Virus record (IMG/VR): IMGVR_UViG_3300028591_000003
Span: 32,001-96,000 of that record
DNA length: 64,000 nt
DNA from: a virus
Lineage: Duplodnaviria; Caudoviricetes
Reading direction: 5' to 3' (one strand)
The notes beneath the pieces are model-generated. The model had not been told where the DNA came from and ran no database searches. It saw only the letters and a list, made by a program, of their open reading frames with translations. Shown here one piece after another: positions 33,404-52,793 of this stretch. Position 1 is the stretch's first letter, and every line of letters starts with the position of its first letter. Both the position numbers and the translations under genes were made by a program.

Positions 33404-33516
33404 AGAGATACTTTATAATAATCAATGCAGGATTTGAACCTGCTACTTCAATTTTAACAAAATTGCGCTCTATCCATATGAGCTAATCGATCAAAATCAG
33501 TGTTGTAAGTATCTCT
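33404..33516 (-). ncRNA. ACUUACAA-module RNA: tRNA(GTT) cloverleaf enclosed by module stem
   Basis: AGAGATACTT-ACAACA...cloverleaf...AAGTATCTCT. Confidence 0.8.
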
Positions 33517-33735
33517 ATTCTCTAAAACAAATAGCTTCAAATAAAAAAGATGATGTTTACCAGACATCATCTGTTATTTACCAAAAATCTAGAATTTAGT
33601 AAACCTATTAGTTTTCGTCACGCAACCACTAACAAAACTCGTCTCTTCATATGGTCAAGAAATAACCCCGATTTCGCTCTTACATTGCTAAATCTAGTCA
33701 CAAATTCTGTTTTACATCTAGAATTAAGATGGGTG

Positions 33736-33807
33736 CGGTCTATGACGGTTACGATCCGTCCTCACTACTGTGACAGAGTAGTATCCTAACCAATGAACGA
33801 ATAGACC
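33736..33807 (-). tRNA. trnD: tRNA-Asp(GTC)
   Basis: CTACT-CTGTCAC-AGTAG; G73. Confidence 0.9.
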
Positions 33808-33813
33808 ATTATC

Positions 33814-34401
33814 TTATAGATTTATTAAACCTTTTTCTAACATTGCATGATGATTAGGGCATAGCCAAACTAAATTATTTTCATTATTTATTTCTTTAAT
33901 TAAAGTGTCTTCTGAAAATTCTAAAATTCCTTTTATATGATGTACTTCAAGTATTTCATCAAATTCATGATTTTTACAATAAGCACAAACTTTTTCTTTA
34001 TCAGATTTTTCTAATATTTTTCTTGCGTTTTTCCTAATTTCTCCACATTTAGTTGTGAGATATTTTTGTCCTGAAATATAATATCCTAAAGTTTTTTCTC
34101 CTATTGTTCCCCTTTTCTTGTTATAACATTCCAAACATATTTCAGAATGTACATCTTTAGGCTTTCCACATATAGGACAAATCTTATTAGGATTTTTTTC
34201 ATGTATATCTGTTCTGCCTTTGTTAAAGGTTTCAGATTCATTAATTATTCTTCTTCGAGGTAATTCAATTCCTAATTTTCTAGCAACTTTTTTAATATTA
34301 CTTCCAGAACAACCATATCTTCTACCTATTTCTTCATAACTGACTTTTTCTATATTTATAAGTCTTTCTAATTCTTCTTTTTCAGAATCCCATTTTGACA
34401 T
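33814..34401 (-). CDS. free-standing HNH endonuclease (HTH + Zn ribbon + HNH)
   Basis: EEIGRRYGCS HTH; CPIC..CLEC; CAYC..EVHH..NLVWLCPNHH. Confidence 0.9.
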   Translation of the reverse strand: MSKWDSEKEELERLINIEKVSYEEIGRRYGCSGSNIKKVARKLGIELPRRRIINESETFNKGRTDIHEKNPNKICPICGKPKDVHSEICLECYNKKRGTIGEKTLGYYISGQKYLTTKCGEIRKNARKILEKSDKEKVCAYCKNHEFDEILEVHHIKGILEFSEDTLIKEINNENNLVWLCPNHHAMLEKGLINL

Positions 34402-34435
34402 ATTTACAAACGAAGGGTTTTTAATCTTCGTACTA

Positions 34436-34466
34436 TAAATATACATTTTGAGTTCGAAAAATCAAA
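34436..34466 (-). promoter_or_regulatory. sigma-A-like promoter for HNH gene
   Basis: TTTG-N19-TATATTTA. Confidence 0.5.
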
Positions 34467-34519
34467 CTTAAACTTATAAATTTAAGAAATTTTAACAATT
34501 ATAAAATAATACAATTTAG

Positions 34520-35094
34520 TACACCAGGTAGGATTCGAACCTACGACCTACTGCTTCATACTACTCTATGTTGCCATAGCCAAACAATGTCCTATTCTTA
34601 GACGATTAGATTTCCATCCTGCTAGGCATTTCACCACGCATTTTGTTTGTTGTAGTCTGGAATACATTATTACCATATTGAAATCCTTGCAAGTAACTAA
34701 GTCCGTTCATTCCCTTCTCATTTCCATCATTTCTGATTTCTCGGGTGTCTTCTTAGTAATTTCAATTTAGGTATCTCCTCTATACTCTCTACACGTTTAT
34801 AAGAAATAAGTGTCCACTCCTACAACACCTTTCGCTATATAAGCTAATGCTTCCATCATACAATACAATGGTATTTCTTAATTTAGCACGGTATTATCCT
34901 TACACATTATTGATTAGTGTTGTTAATCCTGTACTGATTTAACAGCTTAATGAGCGAATTGTTAACATCATTGCTCACACTCTTAGAAAAAGGACTTCCA
35001 CCGTTTTAGGGAGATTCTACATAGGACTTTCGTGCCCATGCATCCAATTTATTTATAGAAGGCAGTTGCTCTAATCCAGCTGAGCTACTGGTGC
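34520..35094 (-). tRNA. trnR: tRNA-Arg(TCT), exons 35057-35094 and 34520-34556
   Basis: Joined halves give ACTGC-CTTCT|AA-GCAGT. Confidence 0.9.
34557..35056 (-). mobile_element. ORF-less group I intron (500 nt) in tRNA-Arg
   Basis: U|...G| ends; P3 AUCUCC/GGAGAU; P4 ACGGU/ACCGU; homologous to the tRNA-Leu intron. Confidence 0.9.
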
Positions 35095-35098
35095 TTAA

Positions 35099-35163
35099 AA
35101 AGATACTTATTTTTATAACCATCCTATATTTATGTTTTATTAAAAATAGTTGTAAGTATCTTT
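35099..35163 (-). ncRNA. ACUUACAA-module RNA, short form
   Basis: AAAGATACTT-ACAAC...AAGTATCTTT. Confidence 0.7.
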
Positions 35164-35229
35164 ATTAACTCTGGATTATCCAAAAACTCCTCTGTTAGGG
35201 AGAGGTGAGTTAATTACTCCAGTTAATAG

Positions 35230-35305
35230 TGGACCTGGAGGGGCATGATCCCTCAACCTTCTGGTTGCAAACCAGACGTTCTAGCCAAATTAGAACTACA
35301 AGCCC
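35230..35305 (-). tRNA. trnA: tRNA-Ala(TGC)
   Basis: TCTGG-TTTGCAA-CCAGA; G3.U70. Confidence 0.9.
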
Positions 35306-35312
35306 TTAAAAG

Positions 35313-35386
35313 TGCGATCACTGGGACTCGAACCCAGGCCACACGGATTAAAAATCCGTTGCTCTAGCCTACTGAGCTATGGTCGC
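35313..35386 (-). tRNA. trnK: tRNA-Lys(TTT)
   Basis: ACGGA-TTTTTAA-TCCGT. Confidence 0.9.
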
Positions 35387-35589
35387 AACTACCCAAGTAA
35401 ATAAAATTTAAATAGTCATCCATTTTGTTTGCTTTGGGTACTACTAGTTTATACTAGGAATTTAATTGATTACTCTAGTTACTATGTGGTAATCTGGGTT
35501 ATTTTCCCTCTAACACGGATAGCTTTTAAGGTATTAACTATCAGAACTCCTTTTATTCTTTAACGAGTTCAAAGGCTTACTCGGACTAG

Positions 35590-35661
35590 TCATCGGTAAG
35601 GGAATTGAACCCTTCTTGGCAGGTTGAAAACCTGTAGTCCTAACCACTAGACGAACCGACG
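35590..35661 (-). tRNA. trnE: tRNA-Glu(TTC)
   Basis: CAGG-TTTTCAA-CCTG. Confidence 0.9.
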
Positions 35662-35665
35662 ATAC

Positions 35666-35733
35666 AAGATACTTTCAACAACTAACCTAAACAATTTACA
35701 AACTATGAAAGTAATAAAAATTGTAAGTATCTT
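35666..35733 (-). ncRNA. ACUUACAA-module RNA, short form
   Basis: AAGATACTT-ACAAT...AAGTATCTT. Confidence 0.7.
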
Positions 35734-35759
35734 ATATTATAATTATGCCAAAAAAGGAG

Positions 35760-35830
35760 TTGCGGTCGTGTGATTCGAACACCGTTTCAAGGTTATGAGC
35801 CTTGCGAGCTACCATTGCTCCACCACCGCG
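35760..35830 (-). tRNA. trnfM: initiator-type tRNA-fMet(CAT)
   Basis: C1:A72 mismatch; CAAGG-CTCATAA-CCTTG. Confidence 0.8.
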
Positions 35831-36022
35831 ATATTAAAAAAGAATATTTGACATTACATAACGCTCTATGTATTCAATTGTTATGTTCTAAGAGTAATTT
35901 CACTTGTGCACAACTTTATAGTTACTCTCACCGGGTATTATGAGGCTTGATTCGCGAAAAACCCATAACTCTAACGGCAGTCTTTACCTTAGTTAGAGGG
36001 TCTTAAATATTCTTTTATGAGA

Positions 36023-36146
36023 AAGTTACTTAATAAATATTTGCATTAAACCACTATGCTAATCCGCAAACATGGAGCAGATAATGGATTCGAACCACTG
36101 ATACTTTTTTAAGTATAATATTTTTAACTAATATTGTAAGTAACTT
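36023..36146 (-). ncRNA. ACUUACAA-module RNA, circularly permuted tRNA (YrlA-like topology)
   Basis: Module stem, T-arm GGTTCGAATCC, acceptor ATCTGC/GCGGAT closed by a loop, D-arm GCATAGTGGTTTAATGC, closing strand. Confidence 0.82.
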
Positions 36147-36150
36147 ATAG

Positions 36151-36221
36151 TTGGAGATAGAGGAGTCGGACCTCTCTAATCAGGACCAAAATCTGAGGCA
36201 TTACCGCTATGCTAATCTCCA
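36151..36221 (-). tRNA. trnQ: tRNA-Gln(TTG)
   Basis: U1-A72; loop TTTTGGT. Confidence 0.88.
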
Positions 36222-36303
36222 ATTTACTACTACTTTTCATCTCGTGAGTAGCCAACGAGTGTTAAAACAGTTTAAATAGTTTATTAATGTCATCACGACA
36301 TCG

Positions 36304-36884
36304 TACGACAGGCGGGGATCGAACCCGCAAGATCTCTACAGACCTGAGGGATTTTCTTACCACTCTATGTTACCATAGCCAAACAAACACATTTTGTCGT
36401 TTAAAGCCGAGCAAGTTCTTAACTTCCATCTGATTTCACCCTTCAAAGAAGTTAATGCAGGCTTTTGTTTGTTGTGGTCTGGACTGTCTCTTTACCATAT
36501 TGAAATTCTTGCAAGTTCGTGACTTATCTCTATATATTGAGGGTTATCAAAAACCATTTTCTTTTGTCCTTATAAATTTCAACTTAGGTATCTCCCGTTC
36601 AGTCTCTACACGATTATAAGAAAAATATTCCTAAGAATATGGGTTGGGAATCGAACCCAACTTTACGCACCCGTAGGTGCACAGGATACCATTACCTGCC
36701 TACACTTCTTATTTTCGCTCGGTATAGTCCTACACATTATTTGTTAGTGTACAGTATTGGATTAAATTATGCACTGCTTTCACCTCAAGGATTTCCACCG
36801 AATTTAGGAGATTCTACTATGGGATTTCTCGCCATAGCACTCAATTTTCTAAGTCCCTTGTGTACACCATTCCACCACTGTCGC
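36304..36884 (-). tRNA. trnL: tRNA-Leu(TAA), exons 36851-36884 and 36304-36355
   Basis: Joined halves give AGGGA-CTT|AAAA-TCCCT with long variable arm. Confidence 0.9.
36356..36850 (-). mobile_element. ORF-less group I intron (495 nt) in tRNA-Leu anticodon
   Basis: U|...G|; P1 ACUU|A / UGAGU; R element AGAGACUG; S element AAGAGACAGUCC. Confidence 0.92.
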
Positions 36885-36886
36885 AT

Positions 36887-36968
36887 TTGAGATACTTAAA
36901 TTTATCTTTTACCAACACGTTGTTCCTATATTTATGTTTAATTAAATAAATATTTATAAGTATCTCAA
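36887..36968 (-). ncRNA. ACUUA(C/U)AA-module RNA, short form
   Basis: TTGAGATACTT-ATAAAT...AAGTATCTCAA. Confidence 0.7.
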
Positions 36969-37022
36969 GATGAACGTAAATAAATTTATTACTTAATTTT
37001 TAAAATCTATAGTTAAAAGATG

Positions 37023-37247
37023 TTAAATCAGTTTAGATAGATTCTGTTTTATGCTAGCGATTTCAGTCTTTAATCGTTCACATTCTTCATTATAACTACG
37101 TCCTTTATGATAGATAGTTCTACCATTTCGTGTTGAAGTCCAAGGTTTCTTGTCTTCACCAGCAGCTTTAAATTTTTCGTAAACTACTTCCAACCTTTGT
37201 AGTGCCATTCTTCTACGGACTACAATATTTCCTTTTCCTTTTGACAT
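37023..37247 (-). CDS. basic hypothetical protein
   Basis: 74 aa ORF. Confidence 0.65.
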   Translation of the reverse strand: MSKGKGNIVVRRRMALQRLEVVYEKFKAAGEDKKPWTSTRNGRTIYHKGRSYNEECERLKTEIASIKQNLSKLI

Positions 37248-37250
37248 ATT

Positions 37251-37550
37251 TTAAAAATGTTTTGTTATTAATTTATAAGAATAGTTATCAAATTTTCTCA
37301 TACATTTAGATTCAAATTTAAAAACTTTCTTAATTTCTTCTTCACTCATTCTAACAGACATATGTACTCTGTAAAATTTATCCCAAGAAAAAAGTCTATG
37401 TTTTATGACTTTAAATTTAATATTGTATCCATTCTCTTTAAAAATATCTGGAATAGAGAAAAGCATTCTGTCTTTAATAGAGTAATTCGGATTAGTCCCG
37501 ATATAATCGTAATAATCCTGAACTGTAAAAGCAATTCTATATTTTTCCAT
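37251..37550 (-). CDS. hypothetical protein
   Basis: 99 aa ORF. Confidence 0.65.
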   Translation of the reverse strand: MEKYRIAFTVQDYYDYIGTNPNYSIKDRMLFSIPDIFKENGYNIKFKVIKHRLFSWDKFYRVHMSVRMSEEEIKKVFKFESKCMRKFDNYSYKLITKHF

Positions 37551-37798
37551 TAAATATATTCTATGATCGTTGTTACTTTTTTAATTTCTATAGTATATTC
37601 TATAATAGTATGAAAATAATCATTATCTGGATAAGTATCATATTTATACTTATGAGTTTTAATGATTTCTTCAATATCATCTTCTTTAGGATTTAGTTTT
37701 TCCCATAAAGGAGCAAATTGTTGTTTAAAATAACGATGTCTCCATAATTGGAAATTATCATCATTAATACATTTAACAAAATATTCAACTTTTTCCAT
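37550..37798 (-). CDS. hypothetical protein
   Basis: 82 aa ORF; AACAATATG start context. Confidence 0.7.
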   Translation of the reverse strand: MEKVEYFVKCINDDNFQLWRHRYFKQQFAPLWEKLNPKEDDIEEIIKTHKYKYDTYPDNDYFHTIIEYTIEIKKVTTIIEYI

Positions 37799-38076
37799 AT
37801 TGTTTGTTGTTTGTTTAAAAATAAGAAGTGCGTTTCACAACGGACTTCTTTCTTGTAGATGAAAAGCCACTGCTTCTCCATAAATTTTAAAAATTTGAAT
37901 TAGTTCTATTATGATTTTCAATTACATTTTCAAAAAATTTTTCACTATCCTCACTTCCTTTAGAATCTAATCGCAGAACTTTCGACCTTAGAAGATATAC
38001 CAACGTACCCACCCAGGTTGAATAGGAAAACCACACTATTTTTAACGCGTATATTATTAGTGTGTAAAATAAATAG

Positions 38077-38209
38077 TCGGGGGACCAGGAATCGAACCTG
38101 GGACTTAGATTTATGAAATCCTTATTTTATTATGCTTTAAGATGTTGTAGGTATCAAAATGATACTAATGCTTTTATTTTCTTACATGTTACCACTACAC
38201 CATCCCCCA
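38077..38209 (-). ncRNA. tRNA scaffold with module in anticodon-arm position
   Basis: GGGGGA/TCCCCC acceptor, D-arm, TAAGA[..GTATC-ATTTT-GATAC-CTACAACA]TCTTA, T-arm CCAGG-TTCGATT-CCTGG. Confidence 0.78.
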
Positions 38210-38218
38210 TATAATAAA

Positions 38219-38350
38219 TCGGAAGGAGAGTTGGACTCGAACCAACAACACTTTGTTTAATAGACAAATACTCTAACCTCTTGAATTTATTAAATTATAA
38301 GTAACTCACGAAATTACTAGAATCAATTTTTATGTTGAGTTATCCGGCCA
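38219..38350 (-). ncRNA. tRNA(ATT)-like scaffold with module in D-loop
   Basis: ACTC..[AGTAATT-TCGTG-AGTTACT-TATAAT]..GGTTAGAGT; TTTGT-CTATTAA-ACAAA; T-arm; degenerate acceptor. Confidence 0.75.
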
Positions 38351-38496
38351 ATTTAATCCAAACTCTGTACAGAAACAGTTTCTTTCTTCATTATAGGTGC
38401 GTGTTATCCTAATTTTTACAGATTCAATGAAACTACCTACGTTTAGTTACATTATATCTGACCGCCAATTTCAATATCGCTGTTAGTTTGGATTAG

Positions 38497-38613
38497 TGGA
38501 GGGAGCAGGAATCGAACCTACATTATAGTCATTTTACGCATGATTAGAAATTTACTATGATTGAATGGTAAGTATCATATGATACTCGTCGTTACCAATA
38601 TTTCAATCCCTCC
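38497..38613 (-). ncRNA. tRNA scaffold with module in D-loop
   Basis: GGAGGGA/TCCCTCC-A; GAAAT[..GG..AGTATC-ATAT-GATACT-TACCAT..]ATTTC; T-arm. Confidence 0.75.
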
Positions 38614-38688
38614 AAATTAAAATTAGTAATCTATCTTCACAGACCAATTACTACTGTCAAACCTTAAAAAACATAACAAATTATGCAG

Positions 38689-38806
38689 CGGGGAGTACAA
38701 GAGTCGAACTTGCACTTCTGGAAAATCCCAGAAATTATGAAAGATGTTTTTGTAAGTAATAATTTACTACTCAACATAATCGGGCTTAACCATGCCCAAA
38801 CTCCCC
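38689..38806 (-). ncRNA. class-II tRNA scaffold with module replacing the anticodon loop
   Basis: GGGGAGT/ACTCCCC; ATTATG[..AGTAGTA-AAT-TATTACT-TACAAA..]CATAAT; long variable arm; T-arm. Confidence 0.8.
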
Positions 38807-38810
38807 TAAT

Positions 38811-38916
38811 TAAGATACTAGAAAATACATCTTGGAATCGAACCAAGTACACTCGGCGTTACGGCTGATGCTCTAACCAAATGAGCTAATGTGGTTATAT
38901 TATTGTAAGTATCTTA
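38811..38916 (-). ncRNA. ACUUACAA-module RNA enclosing a degenerate cloverleaf
   Basis: TAAGATACT-TACAATA..D-arm GCTCATTTGGTTAGAGC..T-arm CTTGG-TTCGATT-CCAAG..AGTATCTTA. Confidence 0.8.
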
Positions 38917-38974
38917 TTCGTCTCAAATAAAGAAATTATGATGCAGTTTTTCTTTTATCTGATGCACATCTAAA

Positions 38975-39367
38975 TCATTTTATACTATCATTTTTATTAA
39001 TAGACCAACTATCTACCCATTTGTCTAAAGCTTTTATACATTTATCTGGAAGTTGTTTTGCAGTTGGATTTGATTTAACATAATCAATAGTTCCACCAAC
39101 TCCATAAATAAGAAGTGCTTGATTTGTTGTAGGAATAAATATTTCTCCTAGACAGCAAACAAAGAAAATAGGTATTGTAAACCTAAGAATTTTAATTGAC
39201 AATTTTTGATACATTTTGTATTCAGTACGTTGGTCCTCAACTTCATTGCAATAGTTTACTAAATATACTATAAAAAATGCTATAGAAAGAATAATACTAG
39301 TAACAAGGAATATTGTTAAAACAGTACTGATTGAATCAAATCTTGTAATCCAATAAATTTCATTCAT
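38975..39367 (-). CDS. two-TM membrane protein
   Basis: YWITRFD, two hydrophobic helices, FIPTT. Confidence 0.78.
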   Translation of the reverse strand: MNEIYWITRFDSISTVLTIFLVTSIILSIAFFIVYLVNYCNEVEDQRTEYKMYQKLSIKILRFTIPIFFVCCLGEIFIPTTNQALLIYGVGGTIDYVKSNPTAKQLPDKCIKALDKWVDSWSINKNDSIK

Positions 39368-39386
39368 ATTATTAAATTTGTTTAAA

Positions 39387-39452
39387 AGGATACTAAAAAT
39401 GTCCCAATTAAAAGTTAGGTGCTTACTAGCAATTTAGTATTATAAGTATCCT
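39387..39452 (-). ncRNA. ACUUA(C/U)AA-module RNA, short form
   Basis: AGGATACT-TATAATA...AGTATCCT. Confidence 0.65.
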
Positions 39453-39483
39453 ATTTATTATGAAAGTAATTATTATAAAGTAA

Positions 39484-39604
39484 AAGTTACTTAGTAAAAA
39501 ACGTTGCTCTAAACCAAGCTGAGCTATCCCGAAACCCTCAGGAGTTGGATTTGAACCAACGACACACGGCTTACAAAGCTGATTCTTGATATTGTAAGTA
39601 ACTT
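39484..39604 (-). ncRNA. ACUUACAA-module RNA, circularly permuted tRNA (YrlA-like topology)
   Basis: AAGTTACTT-ACAATA..T-arm GTTGG-TTCAAAT-CCAAC, TCCTGA-loop-TCGGGA, D-arm GCTCAGCTTGGTTTAGAGC..AAGTAACTT. Confidence 0.82.
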
Positions 39605-39611
39605 AATTAGA

Positions 39612-39642
39612 AACTAGAGGAGGAATCGAACCTCCTCTAGTC
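39612..39642 (-). other. tRNA minihelix-like hairpin
   Basis: ACTAGAGGAGG-TTCGATT-CCTCCTCTAGT. Confidence 0.6.
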
Positions 39643-39661: not shown

Positions 39662-41521
39662 TCAAAGGGTATTTGCTCTCACGAGTTCATACCTATTGCT
39701 TCTATAGAGACTCAACAGTGGAGTATAGACATCAAAGACATCCATATCCTTGAAGTTAGTCAGGAATTGCTCAATCATTGCTGGATTCGAAGGTATGTAC
39801 ATCATGTTGTCAATTCCACTAAATCGGTCTGCTCCAGCACTAGCACGAGAGCCAACAGCACCAGTAACATCCATAAGGATTACGTAAGGACGGAATCCAA
39901 AGAACCCCTCACACTGACGGAAGAAATCGTTCATACTCGCCTCTGGTGAATACATATTATTGAACATACCATCAGACATGATTGTCCATACAGGATAGTT
40001 ACGAAGAGCATCCTTAATCTCAGGATTTGCCTGACAAGCCTGGTTCAATCCCTTAGGAATACATGAAATATCAGTATTCCATCCCTGGAACTTACTTTGA
40101 AGGAAAGCAGAAATCCTCTTGTAATTATCCAGGAAACTAAGTTTAGGATCAACGAATGGTTGTGCCTTAGTCTTAGCTACCTTACTTCTTAAGATTGAGT
40201 TCTGAGATGTAGCCTGAGAATCAATGTAAGAATAGAAACGAGATGTTCCATCAAACATACCAACGAGATTACGAGCATCATCATCGGGATTCTTAACCAT
40301 ACATACTGCAGTAATAAAGGCAGCAAATCTGAATGGTGTACCACTCATAGAACCAGAACTGTCAATAATGGTCAGTGAATTATAAGGAAGATTAACCTTA
40401 TTCATAAAGGACTCAATCTTCAACTTATCAATTGTGCCACTAAGAATCTGGTTGTAGAGTTCAGTAAAGTTAGTAGCACCAATTGTTACCTTGGCCTCTT
40501 TCTTCACTTTCTCCAATTTAACCTTATCCTCCTCACTAGCCTGACCTTGACGAACCTTCTCTTCCAGAATACGTTGTTCTTGTTGCTTCTGCTCCTTATA
40601 AGTTTCCCATTCCTTGATCCAAGGCTGGAACTTAGCCCACTTAGATACTTCTGCAATAGCTACATTAGACTTTCCATCCAATCCAGCTGTCTCACAGTCT
40701 GCACCTACTACCTTGGAATAGAGGATTCTGTTCTTAACCCTGAACCTAGCCTGAGATGGGAGCTTGTCAAACCAGTCGATGAATTGCTGCTTGTCAAACT
40801 CATTTATCTTGCCAGTAGAGAAAAGTACAGATTCAAGAGAGCCATTGTACTGCTTTCGCCACTCACGATAACCCTTAAAATATTCCAGTTCCCATCCCAT
40901 CATCTTAGAGAGTTCAGTTAAGAAGTTCTTTTTCTCATTCATTACCTGAATAGTCTCAGGAAGAACTCTCTTATGACCTTGACGCTTACTGGTTCTTGGG
41001 ATAGTCAAGAACTTGGCAATCAATGTCTTATTGAACGGATTAGAACCGTTAATCACAGCATATGTATAGTCAAGAAGAGCCTTCACATACTCTTTATCTT
41101 GAAATGCATGATATATTTTCAGTACCTTCGAACCCTTAGTTTGAACTCGATTACGGAACAAAACATCAAAGCATGTATACTCATTAAAGAGTTGTGCATT
41201 TAAAAACTTGATGAATTGTTTCTTATCTTTTTTCCAAAGCCAGGTTGTGATAGTATAGAAAGCCTCACGATTGGCATTACCACCACTGTCAACCTTCTTC
41301 TTTTTAAAGATGTTGTGCTGACGATTAGTAATGTCTCCAATAGAGAACAGGATTGAGAAGAAAAGTTCTCTCTTTTCTTTAGAGTTCTTTACTTCAAGCC
41401 ATGCATCATTCAGAAGAACCTCTGAAATAACTGCATCAGTTGATGCCTGCTGAAGTTGCAGACATCTGCGAAGTCCGTAAAACGGATTGTTACTTTTTTT
41501 ATTAAGTTCTACTTGTACCAT
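39662..41521 (-). CDS. DUF2828/TROVE(Ro60)-like helical domain plus vWA domain protein
   Basis: MIDAS IIDSSGSM...NTD...MSDGMF; N-terminal pattern AW...LF...DI...GG...RE.F, AKF...PR, KLPSQA recognised by eye as DUF2828-like. Confidence 0.75.
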   Translation of the reverse strand: MVQVELNKKSNNPFYGLRRCLQLQQASTDAVISEVLLNDAWLEVKNSKEKRELFFSILFSIGDITNRQHNIFKKKKVDSGGNANREAFYTITTWLWKKDKKQFIKFLNAQLFNEYTCFDVLFRNRVQTKGSKVLKIYHAFQDKEYVKALLDYTYAVINGSNPFNKTLIAKFLTIPRTSKRQGHKRVLPETIQVMNEKKNFLTELSKMMGWELEYFKGYREWRKQYNGSLESVLFSTGKINEFDKQQFIDWFDKLPSQARFRVKNRILYSKVVGADCETAGLDGKSNVAIAEVSKWAKFQPWIKEWETYKEQKQQEQRILEEKVRQGQASEEDKVKLEKVKKEAKVTIGATNFTELYNQILSGTIDKLKIESFMNKVNLPYNSLTIIDSSGSMSGTPFRFAAFITAVCMVKNPDDDARNLVGMFDGTSRFYSYIDSQATSQNSILRSKVAKTKAQPFVDPKLSFLDNYKRISAFLQSKFQGWNTDISCIPKGLNQACQANPEIKDALRNYPVWTIMSDGMFNNMYSPEASMNDFFRQCEGFFGFRPYVILMDVTGAVGSRASAGADRFSGIDNMMYIPSNPAMIEQFLTNFKDMDVFDVYTPLLSLYRSNRYELVRANTL

Positions 41522-41992
41522 TGTTTTAAATTTATTATTTGTAAGTAACTAATTAAATAAATTTCCTACATCTGTTTTATAGCAATTAACTCGTTCAATC
41601 TACTAAAGAGATTCTACTAAAGTGCAGATTCTCACTGCTTTTCTATTTTACAGTCTCCATCACGTTGCTTTACGTATCACAATGACCTCAATCACATGTT
41701 TGCCACTACAAGGTCTTTCAACTGTCAATTCAGTATGCCCATTGAAGGTTCAATATTGGAATTCCCTTCAGCCCTCGGAAATTTATTATAAATTAAAATA
41801 CTATCTAACGCTATAAACGCAGGAGTTGGCAACACCCTTTTCTCCCTAGCATAAGTTAATATGCCTCCAATTCGACCAATAGATAGTATTTTATCTGAAA
41901 AAGAGTGGCTTCGAGCGGTTTTATCTCTACTTCACCCGCGCTATAGTTTCCGCACACGTGGTTCCGGTATCAAGCTTCACTCTTATTCTTGT

Positions 41993-42430
41993 TTAGTTGA
42001 ACTCTTCCGTAGAATCCATAGCAGCAAGCTCTGCCTCCATCTCCTTAATACGATCCTCAGGAGTTTTGGTGGACTCTTTAAGTTCAGCGAGCTTCTCAGT
42101 AAGCTCTGCCTTCTTACGGCGACTCTCTGCGAGTTCAAGATGGTAGCGCTTGAAACCTACAATGAGATTTACAAGTTCCTTCATCTCCTTGAGAGAATCG
42201 AGTTCAGTAGTGTTAACTTCTACCCATTCATCCTTGTTCTCAAGATTCTGAATCTTAGTTGAAAGACCAGCCTTGATATTGTTCAGGGTGTTAATACTTG
42301 TTGTGTGAATCAACTCTACAATGTTAAGTGGAGCACCCATTTTAGTAGAGATTGTACTGTTTGTCATGAGCATCTTAAGAGCAAGCTCACACATCTTGCT
42401 GTAATGCTCTTTTGTGAAATTTATTTTCAT
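41993..42430 (-). CDS. coiled-coil hypothetical protein
   Basis: 145 aa; GC-richer codon usage like the vWA gene. Confidence 0.8.
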   Translation of the reverse strand: MKINFTKEHYSKMCELALKMLMTNSTISTKMGAPLNIVELIHTTSINTLNNIKAGLSTKIQNLENKDEWVEVNTTELDSLKEMKELVNLIVGFKRYHLELAESRRKKAELTEKLAELKESTKTPEDRIKEMEAELAAMDSTEEFN

Positions 42431-52700: not shown

Positions 52701-52776
52701 TGGGGCGTAGTCGAGCGGCTTCAGACTGGAGACTCTAAATCTCTGCATTACGCGGGTTCGAATCCTGCCACCCCAA
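52701..52776 (+). tRNA. amber suppressor tRNA(CTA), probably Gln-accepting
   Basis: GGAGA-CTCTAAA-TCTCT; U1-A72, G2-C71, G3-C70 as in tRNA-Gln. Confidence 0.92.
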
Positions 52777-52793
52777 CTAGACGTAAATGAATT

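What the first reader, a model, noticed from the sequence alone, without database searches (positions are those of the whole stretch)
41503..41555. The same module overlaps the start codon of the vWA gene: likely autoregulation
Seen: the mRNA leader reads AGUUACUUACAAA about 20-30 nt before the AUG. AGUUACUU can pair with AAGUA(GA)ACU in codons 3-6, enclosing the AUG. Inference: free protein binds its own mRNA once the array RNAs are saturated. This ties the motif to this particular protein independently of gene proximity.
Basis: partly seen in the sequence, partly recalled or inferred. Interest (0 to 1): 0.85.

Follow-up and report, generated by a model that had tools for sequence, protein, structure and literature searches.

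The report
Y-RNA-like tag clamps its own gene's start
The short RNA tag that marks about a dozen tRNA-like RNAs in this phage also sits in front of the neighbouring Ro60-like protein gene and pairs across its start codon, and this pairing is kept in distant relatives, so it is probably a feedback switch on that protein's synthesis, though binding has not been shown.

Summary
The motif is real: AGUUACUUACAAA lies at 41550-41538 (minus strand), 17 nt before the AUG of the 619-aa gene.

The bulged pairing with codons 3-6 scores +0.3 kcal/mol and has pair probability 0.03. The favoured and conserved partner is AAGUAAC in codons 9-11 (41495-41489), giving a 7-bp helix that encloses the AUG.

- **Homologue test:** it passes. 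85 of 96 distinct homologue leaders carry UACUUAYAA.
- **Helix versus controls:** 91% of leaders have a helix scoring 7 or more, against 9.5% of control windows.
- **Synonymous constraint:** Ser-Asn at the partner site is AGU-AAC in 58 of 59 leaders, against 8% of Ser-Asn pairs elsewhere in the same genes.
- **Partner moves:** it lies in the leader, codons 3-5, codons 8-11 or codons 17-19 in different clades.
- **Compensatory changes:** homologues at 32-38% identity show them, for example UUUUCACUU:AAGUGAAAA.
- **Not a general promoter:** all 8 same-strand copies in the 176-kb genome lie in the RNA array or this leader.

The protein has a vWA domain and looks Ro60-like only as a whole. Its N-terminal domain alone is a generic helical repeat.

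Autoregulation is inferred. The helix is weak (-3.4 kcal/mol, z +0.87), and no binding or transcript data exist.

The scan noted the protein-plus-tagged-RNA system before, in this genome and one other. The notes shown to me for those do not mention the leader element.

The parts
41538..41550 (-). 5' tag AGUUACUUACAAA in the leader; it ends 17 nt before the AUG
   Evidence: Exact match. GTTACTTACA is invariant in 57 aligned class-C and weak leaders, while the flanking leader sequence is hypervariable.
41543..41549 (-). 5' strand GUUACUU of the conserved helix
   Evidence: The MFE and centroid structures pair it with 41495-41489.
41489..41495 (-). 3' strand AAGUAAC: last base of codon 9, then Ser10 (AGU) and Asn11 (AAC)
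   Evidence: AGT in 59 of 59 and AAC in 58 of 59 homologue leaders that have Ser-Asn here. In the rest of the same genes AGT is 27% of Ser codons and AAC 31% of Asn codons.
41519..41521 (-). Start codon, inside the 47-nt A-rich loop of the helix
41505..41514 (-). It is only a weak alternative in this genome. The same site is the real partner in clades whose 5' strand is UUUUUACUU.
   Evidence: +0.3 kcal/mol and P 0.03 here. Class B helices AAGUAGAA or AAGUAAAA in L001, L004, L006, L044, L045, L047, L048, L050, L095 and L239.
39662..41521 (-). 619-aa gene: helical-repeat N-terminal domain plus a vWA domain with a DxSxS MIDAS motif; Ro60-like as a whole
   Evidence: the N-terminal domain alone is inconclusive
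33404..39603 (-). Array of small RNAs closed by 9-11 bp helices NAGWUACUU(A):(U)AAGUAWCUN. It includes a YrlA-like permuted tRNA mimic at 39603-39485 and a caged tRNA-Asn at 33514-33404.
39388..39451 (-). A second module in front of an ORF: GGAUACU(UAUAA) pairs with AGUAUCC, ending 20 nt before the AUG (39367) of a conserved 130-aa membrane-like ORF

Best explanation
The leader and first codons of the Ro60-like gene form a translational operator that copies the closing helix and tag (UACUUACAA) of the phage's tRNA-like RNAs. The tag's 5' strand lies 17 nt upstream of the AUG. It pairs with AAGUAAC in codons 9-11, so the start codon and the A-rich ribosome landing region sit in the loop.

The helix is too weak to hold by itself. 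The proposal is that the Ro60-like protein recognises the tag as it does on its RNA partners, clamps the helix, and blocks initiation on its own cistron. This would be negative feedback by molecular mimicry.

Shown: the tag, the helix, and their conservation, synonymous-site constraint and compensatory changes. Inferred: that this protein is the factor that binds, and that binding represses.
For: 1. Same tag as the array. TACTTACAA occurs 8 times on this strand of the 176-kb genome: 7 in the array and 1 in this leader. The array copies close 9-11 bp helices in which the W position covaries.

2. Conserved in homologues. 85 of 96 distinct leaders carry TACTTAYAA within 160 nt of the ATG. GTTACTTACA is invariant amid hypervariable leader sequence.

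3. The helix is selected. A score of 7 or more is found in 91% of leaders against 9.5% of control windows taken from the same CDSs. A score of 7.5 or more is found in 74% against 4.9%.

4. Synonymous constraint. The Ser-Asn partner is AGT-AAC in 58 of 59 leaders, against 7.8% of Ser-Asn dipeptides elsewhere in the same genes. Neighbouring Asn codons switch freely between AAT and AAC.

5. Partner turnover with the helix kept. Four partner positions were seen, with at least 17 class changes on the protein tree. Most lineages that lost the codon 8-11 Ser-Asn partner have another helix scoring 7 or more.

6. Compensatory changes in distant homologues:
- L240 UUUUCACUU:AAGUGAAAA
- L236 CUCACU:AGUGAG
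- L242 UUUCACU:AGUGAAA
- L034 and L118 AGGACACUU:AAGUGUCCU
- L239 UUUUUACUU:AAGUAAAAA

7. The tag lies inside an mRNA. In many relatives the stop codon of the syntenic upstream gene is only 8-25 nt before the tag.

8. The protein is a plausible binder.
- The top 11 Foldseek PDB hits are all Ro60, Rsr or TROVE structures.
- VIA Z is 12.0 for 9kop and 11.5 for 2nvo.
- A YrlA-like RNA lies next to the gene.
- Ro60 contacts mainly the 5' strand of its site (PMC4201824).
Against: - The helix is only 7 bp and closes a 47-nt loop. Its MFE is -3.4 kcal/mol and its z-score is +0.87, so it folds less well than shuffled sequence. There is no thermodynamic support.
- The partner was found by searching a window in each lineage, so some classification is post hoc.
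- The N-terminal domain alone gives only generic HEAT/ARM-like matches, and no TROVE Pfam hit was found. RNA binding by this protein is therefore not established.
- A module also precedes another conserved ORF, so the tag does not single out this gene.
- The most distant homologues L030, L036, L108, L121, L237 and L245 have no leader tag.
The mRNA 5' end in this genome is unknown.
Confidence: 0.5

Rival explanations
1. The tag and helix are recognised by a different factor, such as a phage or host endoribonuclease or another RNA-binding protein. That factor would process or stabilise the tagged RNAs. The leader copy would then set the 5' end or half-life of this cistron, or inactivate it by cleavage, without feedback from the Ro60-like protein.
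For: The tag flanks many unrelated bodies: real tRNAs, tRNA mimics and plain AU-rich hairpins. It also precedes a second ORF. It sits between cistrons, where processing would be useful. The link to the Ro60-like protein rests only on adjacency, co-conservation and a loose fold match.
Against: A helix of 7-11 bp is too short for RNase III (own knowledge). Cutting inside a helix whose 3' strand lies in codons 9-11 would destroy the mRNA, so this would still be regulation. The gene and the tagged RNAs travel together in all 121 loci examined.
Confidence: 0.2
2. The helix acts by itself, with no protein, for example by damping translation initiation or shielding the 5' end. It shares sequence with the array tag only through common descent, from a tagged RNA unit that once lay upstream of the gene.
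For: In some clades a complete tagged RNA, in L243 a caged tRNA, sits directly upstream with its 3' strand ending 2-18 nt before the AUG. This suggests how the arrangement arose.
Against: The helix is too weak to matter alone (-3.4 kcal/mol, z +0.87). The unpaired ACAA part of the tag, which is not needed for pairing, is kept as strictly as the paired part. That points to sequence-specific recognition.
Confidence: 0.15
3. The motif is a promoter or other transcription signal for the small RNA genes and for this gene, and the complementarity downstream is incidental.
For: It has a fixed orientation and lies upstream of genes. It is 1-44 nt from the ATG in most leaders and 87-91 nt in four clade-A leaders.
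Against: - All 8 same-strand copies in the 176-kb genome lie in the RNA array or this leader.
- In the array the motif is the paired 5' strand of helices that covary.
- In L028 and L117 it ends 1-2 nt before the ATG.
- The downstream complement is under synonymous constraint and shows compensatory changes.
- It often sits 8-25 nt after the stop codon of the upstream gene, or 4 nt after a tRNA 3' end.
Confidence: 0.05
4. The leader copy is a functionless remnant, and the pairing is a by-product of a conserved N-terminal peptide.
For: Q/E-V-E/K and K-S-N are conserved peptide motifs that happen to encode AAGUA and AGUAAC.
Against: Codon choice at Ser-Asn departs sharply from the genes' own usage. 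When the peptide changes, to S-E or C-S-N-C, the 5' strand or the partner site changes to match. The control-window rate is 5-10%.
Confidence: 0.05

Closest known systems
Ro60/Rsr with Y RNAs, especially bacterial and phage YrlA (Chen et al. 2014, PMC4201824; Rfam RF02553)
   Same: - A two-domain protein (helical repeat plus vWA with MIDAS) encoded next to small RNAs whose ends form a protein-binding stem around a tRNA-like body.
- One RNA (39603-39485) matches the full YrlA model.
- Recognition is proposed to rest mainly on the 5' strand.
   Different: - No TROVE hit by sequence, and the N-terminal domain alone is not specifically Ro60-like.
- The tag is AGWUACUUACAA, not GNCGAAN0-1G or GGUCCGA.
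- There are about a dozen tagged RNAs, including real tRNAs.
- A copy of the site across the protein's own start codon was not found for Ro60 in my literature searches.
Autogenous translational operators that mimic the protein's RNA ligand: E. coli ThrRS and the thrS leader, ribosomal proteins such as L1, S8 and L20, T4 gp32 and RegA, and the MS2 coat protein hairpin that holds the replicase AUG (own knowledge, not tested here)
   Same: A cis element copies the protein's normal RNA target, overlaps the ribosome binding site or start codon, and would give negative feedback once the main targets are occupied.
   Different: Here the helix's 3' strand lies inside the coding sequence and has moved between four positions during evolution. 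The proposed binder is a Ro60-like protein. No binding or repression has been measured.

Membership tests
Ro60/Rsr-Y RNA ribonucleoprotein | TROVE domain detectable by sequence (Pfam PF05731) | tested here: not met
   No Pfam hit for P0001. None of 37 diverse family members hits TROVE, even at E up to 5.
Ro60/Rsr-Y RNA ribonucleoprotein | C-terminal vWA domain with a MIDAS motif | tested here: met
   D387-x-S389-x-S391 is invariant across the family. VWA_2 hits 14 of 37 members. The family profile hits the Ro60 vWA region at E 0.015-0.035. vWA structures align at Z about 10.
Ro60/Rsr-Y RNA ribonucleoprotein | Whole-protein fold like Ro60 (helical-repeat ring plus vWA) | tested here: inconclusive
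   For the full-length model the top 11 Foldseek hits are all Ro60, Rsr or TROVE structures, at E 5e-5 to 2e-3 but TM only about 0.3. VIA gives Z 12.0 for 9kop (388 residues aligned) and Z 11.5 for 2nvo. The N-terminal domain alone gives only generic HEAT/ARM-like matches: Foldseek E 0.08 or worse, VIA Z 6.7 or less.
Ro60/Rsr-Y RNA ribonucleoprotein | Adjacent Y RNA with a tRNA-like domain and a stem formed by its two ends | tested here: inconclusive
   The Rfam YrlA model matches 39472-39590 over its full length at 39 bits, E 8e-6, but below the gathering score of 69. The two ends form a 10-bp stem.
Ro60/Rsr-Y RNA ribonucleoprotein | Conserved Ro60-binding sequence (GGUCCGA in metazoa, GNCGAAN0-1G in YrlA) | tested here: not met
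   The conserved 5' strand here is AGWUACUUACAA. The reference motifs are taken from PMC4201824.
Autogenous translational operator by RNA mimicry | The cis element copies the sequence and structure of the protein's presumed RNA ligand | tested here: met
   The same UACUUACAA tag and the same kind of helix occur in the array RNAs.
Autogenous translational operator by RNA mimicry | The element overlaps the start codon or ribosome binding region | tested here: met
   The AUG lies in the loop here. In the other clades the helix encloses the AUG or ends 2-18 nt before it.
Autogenous translational operator by RNA mimicry | The structure is kept by selection (covariation) | tested here: met
   Comparison with control windows, synonymous-site constraint, partner switching on the tree and compensatory changes.
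Autogenous translational operator by RNA mimicry | The gene's own product binds the element and represses translation | not testable with these tools
   No protein-RNA prediction or assay is available.
Promoter element | Found upstream of many transcription units, with no requirement for a downstream complement | tested here: not met
   All 8 same-strand copies in 176 kb lie in the array or this leader. The complement is under selection.

The most novel reading that the evidence does not exclude
The tag is an address label for a small phage post-transcriptional regulon. A Ro60-family protein binds tagged tRNAs and tRNA mimics. When it is in excess it clamps the start regions of its own mRNA and of a conserved 130-aa membrane-protein mRNA, so the load of tagged RNAs sets their translation. 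This would be the first Ro60-type protein shown to act as a translational repressor through a Y-RNA mimic in an mRNA.
Probability: 0.3. Interest if true: 0.8.

Novelty: new variant of a known kind. Interest (0 to 1): 0.62.

Why it matters
If the feedback reading holds, the leader gives a second, independent view of what the Ro60-like protein recognises: a paired 5' strand followed by unpaired ACAA. The natural compensatory variants could serve as ready-made binding mutants.

It would add translational control to what Ro60-family proteins do, and link the load of tRNA-like RNAs to the supply of the protein. This would apply to a widespread group of uncultured gut and rumen phages. The protein family has more than 1,200 relatives in metagenomes and no match among 50,697 deposited phage genomes.

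Even if the binder is another factor, the element is a well-supported cis-regulatory RNA that overlaps coding sequence and constrains codon choice.

Tried and rejected
Rejected on energy and pair probability and on lack of conservation in the nearest relatives.
- **Thermodynamic support.** None. The z-score is +0.87.
- **Collection-wide scan for modules.** I scanned IMG/VR for TACTTACAA, a 40-70 nt gap, then TAAGTAWCT, to test coupling of the tag to the gene.
- **Named phages.** blastn and tblastn against GenBank phages gave no match, so no cultured relative or published transcriptome could be used.
- **N-terminal domain folded alone.** Ro60 is not among the top matches. I therefore do not call the protein a TROVE member.
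- **Protein atlas.** Neighbouring clusters carry DUF2828 or DUF7788. Only one family member hits DUF7788, at E 0.015, and the literature on DUF2828 is uninformative. This stays a lead only.
- **Flanking base pair.** Covariation at the pair next to GUUACUU is uninformative, because the partner base is always A or G.
- **Metagenome scan.** The first attempt, with the most diverse alignment, failed for lack of a conserved block. It was repeated with a closer set.

Full report
**Observation.** All features are on the minus strand.
- The 619-aa ORF runs 41521-39662.
- AGTTACTTACAAA is at 41550-41538, ending 17 nt before the ATG at 41521-41519.
- AAGTAGAACT is at 41514-41505, in codons 3-6.

The motif is far from random. 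AGWTACTTRYAA has 10 exact copies in the window, all on this strand and all between 33.5 and 41.6 kb. In the full 176,443-bp genome the core TACTTACAA occurs 8 times on this strand, all in that stretch, against about 2.5 expected. The other strand has 3 copies against 2.7 expected.

**What the motif is elsewhere.** In the array downstream of the gene, each copy is the 5' strand of a 9-11 bp helix. The 3' strand lies 60-120 nt further on, and the pairing reads NAGWUACUU(A):(U)AAGUAWCUN, with the W position covarying.
- The bodies enclosed by these helices differ. They include a real tRNA-Asn (33514-33404), tRNA-like RNAs and plain AU-rich hairpins.
- One body (39603-39485) is a permuted tRNA mimic. 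It matches the whole Rfam YrlA (Y RNA-like) model at 39 bits, E 8e-6, below the gathering score of 69.
- The same arrangement recurs in the homologous loci, always on the gene strand. The variable position before UACUU can be A, U, C or G, and its partner matches.

**The protein.**
- There is no Pfam, PHROG or PDB sequence hit for the protein itself.
- The DxSxS MIDAS motif is invariant across the family.
- VWA_2 hits 14 of 37 diverse members.
- A family profile touches the vWA region of Ro60 structures at E 0.015-0.035.
- An AlphaFold model (pLDDT 74) has Ro60, Rsr and TROVE structures as its top 11 Foldseek PDB hits over the full length, but at TM about 0.3.
- VIA-align gives Z 12.0 for 9kop and Z 11.5 for 2nvo.
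- The N-terminal 375 residues modelled alone match only generic HEAT/ARM-type repeats.

I therefore call the protein Ro60-like in architecture and context, not a demonstrated TROVE member.

I collected 121 loci from IMG/VR and metagenomes, which give 96 distinct leaders.
- 85 of the 96 have TACTTAYAA within 160 nt upstream of the ATG. In most it is 1-44 nt away.
- Four of the other 11 carry variants, CACUUACAA or GUUACUCACAA.
- In an alignment of 57 leaders, GTTACTTACA is invariant, while the sequence between it and the ATG varies freely in length and letters.

**The pairing partner.**
- The fold instead pairs GUUACUU (41549-41543) with AAGUAAC (41495-41489). This covers the last base of Lys9, then Ser10 (AGU) and Asn11 (AAC).
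- That helix scores -3.4 kcal/mol and has pair probability 0.83. The AUG sits in a 47-nt A-rich loop.

Four lines of evidence show that this helix is selected.

1. *Control windows.* The best helix between the tag and the stretch up to +60 scores 7 or more in 91% of leaders. In equal-length control windows from the same CDSs the figure is 9.5%. For a score of 7.5 or more the figures are 74% and 4.9%.

2. *Synonymous constraint.*
   - Every one of the 59 leaders with Ser-Asn in the N-terminal head uses AGT for Ser, and 58 use AAC for Asn.
   - In the rest of the same genes AGT is 27% of Ser codons and AAC 31% of Asn codons. AGT-AAC makes up 7.8% of Ser-Asn pairs there.
   - Neighbouring Asn codons switch freely between AAT and AAC in the same sequences.

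3. *Partner switching.* The partner site moves while a helix is kept.
   - It lies in the leader (starting 22 to 7 nt before the AUG), in codons 3-5, in codons 8-11, or in codons 17-19 (UAAGUAACUG, encoding C-S-N-C).
   - The protein tree requires at least 17 changes among these classes.
- Clades whose 5' strand became UUUUUACUU pair without a bulge with AAGUAGAA or AAGUAAAA at codons 3-5.

4. *Compensatory changes.* Distant homologues fetched one at a time show them (checked):
   - L240 (37% identity): UUUUCACUU:AAGUGAAAA at K-S-E-N
   - L236 (32%): CUCACU:AGUGAG
   - L242 (33%): UUUCACU:AGUGAAA
   - L239 (38%): UUUUUACUU:AAGUAAAAA
   - L034 and L118: AGGACACUU:AAGUGUCCU, in the leader
   - L243 (29%): a tagged helix that cages a tRNA and ends 17 nt before the AUG

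   The U:A to C:G change tracks whether Asn or Glu follows the Ser.

**Not a promoter.**
- All same-strand copies in the genome lie in the array or this leader.
- In the array the motif is a paired strand.
- In L028 and L117 it ends 1-2 nt before the ATG.
- In many relatives the stop codon of the syntenic upstream gene lies only 8-25 nt before it. That gene's product ends in ...EEF, as does P0272 here. In others a tRNA 3' end lies 4 nt before it.

So the tag is an intercistronic part of a longer transcript. The strict strand bias, the asymmetric ACAA extension and several G·U pairs favour an RNA element over a DNA inverted repeat.

**Mechanism and its limits.** The best reading is a translational operator. 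The tag is recognised as on the array RNAs, the helix is clamped, and the start region is closed to the ribosome.

The Ro60-like protein is the natural candidate for three reasons.
- It travels with the tagged RNAs in every locus examined.
- It resembles Ro60 and sits next to a YrlA-like RNA.
- Ro60 reads mainly the 5' strand of its site (PMC4201824).

The leader helix (7 bp) is shorter than the array helices (9-11 bp). That fits a lower-affinity site, but this is speculation.

Several points count against the reading.
- The helix has no thermodynamic support (z +0.87).
- The protein's RNA binding is untested.
- No transcript data could be obtained.
- A conserved 130-aa membrane-like ORF (39367-38975) also has a module ending 20 nt before its AUG, and this is kept in L063, L066 and L101. 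The tag therefore does not single out the Ro60-like gene. It may mark a small regulon, or a processing signal read by another factor.
- The most distant homologues lack the leader tag.

**Comparison and verdict.**
- The element works like the classical mimicry operators: ThrRS and the thrS leader, ribosomal proteins, and the MS2 coat protein hairpin over the replicase AUG (own knowledge).
- It belongs to a system that resembles Ro60/Y RNA, but not all membership criteria are met.
- Library searches found no report of a Ro60-type protein regulated through a Y-RNA-like site in its own mRNA, nor of this family in crAss-like or other phages. TROVE proteins are known from some jumbo phages (PMC7824862).
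- The scan had already noted the protein-plus-tagged-RNA system in this genome and in one other.

I rate a selected cis-acting RNA helix at the start codon at about 0.85. I rate autoregulation by this protein at about 0.5.

Noticed in passing
window 41551-41995 (minus strand): A 445-nt non-coding, GC-richer stretch lies between the syntenic upstream gene (P0272, ending at 41993) and the tag. It folds into three long-stem domains (MFE -109 kcal/mol, z -2.25) and has no Rfam match. Its two ends (gaagtagagataaaaccgctcgaagccactc... and ...gatgtaggaaatttattt) recur separately just upstream of the tag in different relatives. It may be one or two inserted structured RNAs.
   Followed up: partly
window 38975-39451 (minus strand): A 130-aa ORF with a hydrophobic N-terminal segment (MNEIYWITR...) is preceded by a tagged 7-bp helix (39451-39445 with 39394-39388) that ends 20 nt before its AUG. 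The ORF is about 50% identical in L063, L066 and L101, and the upstream module is kept in all three. It has no Pfam hit.
   Followed up: partly
window 39614-39640 (minus strand): A 10-bp hairpin with a T-loop-like UUCGAUU loop (a tRNA T-arm or minihelix look-alike) sits 22 nt after the gene's stop codon, just before the YrlA-like RNA.
   Followed up: no
window 52701-52777 (plus strand): ARAGORN calls a tRNA with a CUA anticodon (an amber suppressor, labelled Pyl). Together with 23 other tRNA genes this suggests that part of the phage may read TAG as a sense codon.
   Followed up: no
Contig holding homologue P0149 (the 32.9-kb place listed without DNA): An RNA ligase gene (PF09414) lies two genes downstream of the Ro60-like homologue. 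Cellular Ro60 also associates with RNA-repair genes.
   Followed up: no
P0001 family: The family has more than 1,200 relatives in metagenomes and 156 clusters at 50% identity. It has no tblastn match in 50,697 deposited phage genomes. Atlas neighbours carry DUF2828 or DUF7788, domains of unknown function (the Atlas rows were all viral clusters).
   Followed up: partly
L241:1370-1400 and L238:2135-2160: In distant relatives the tag occurs inside-out, as a helix capped by a 4-nt loop (for example GUAUG-auag-CAUACUUAUAA), within tRNA-like RNAs just upstream of the gene. It does not enclose the AUG there.
   Followed up: no
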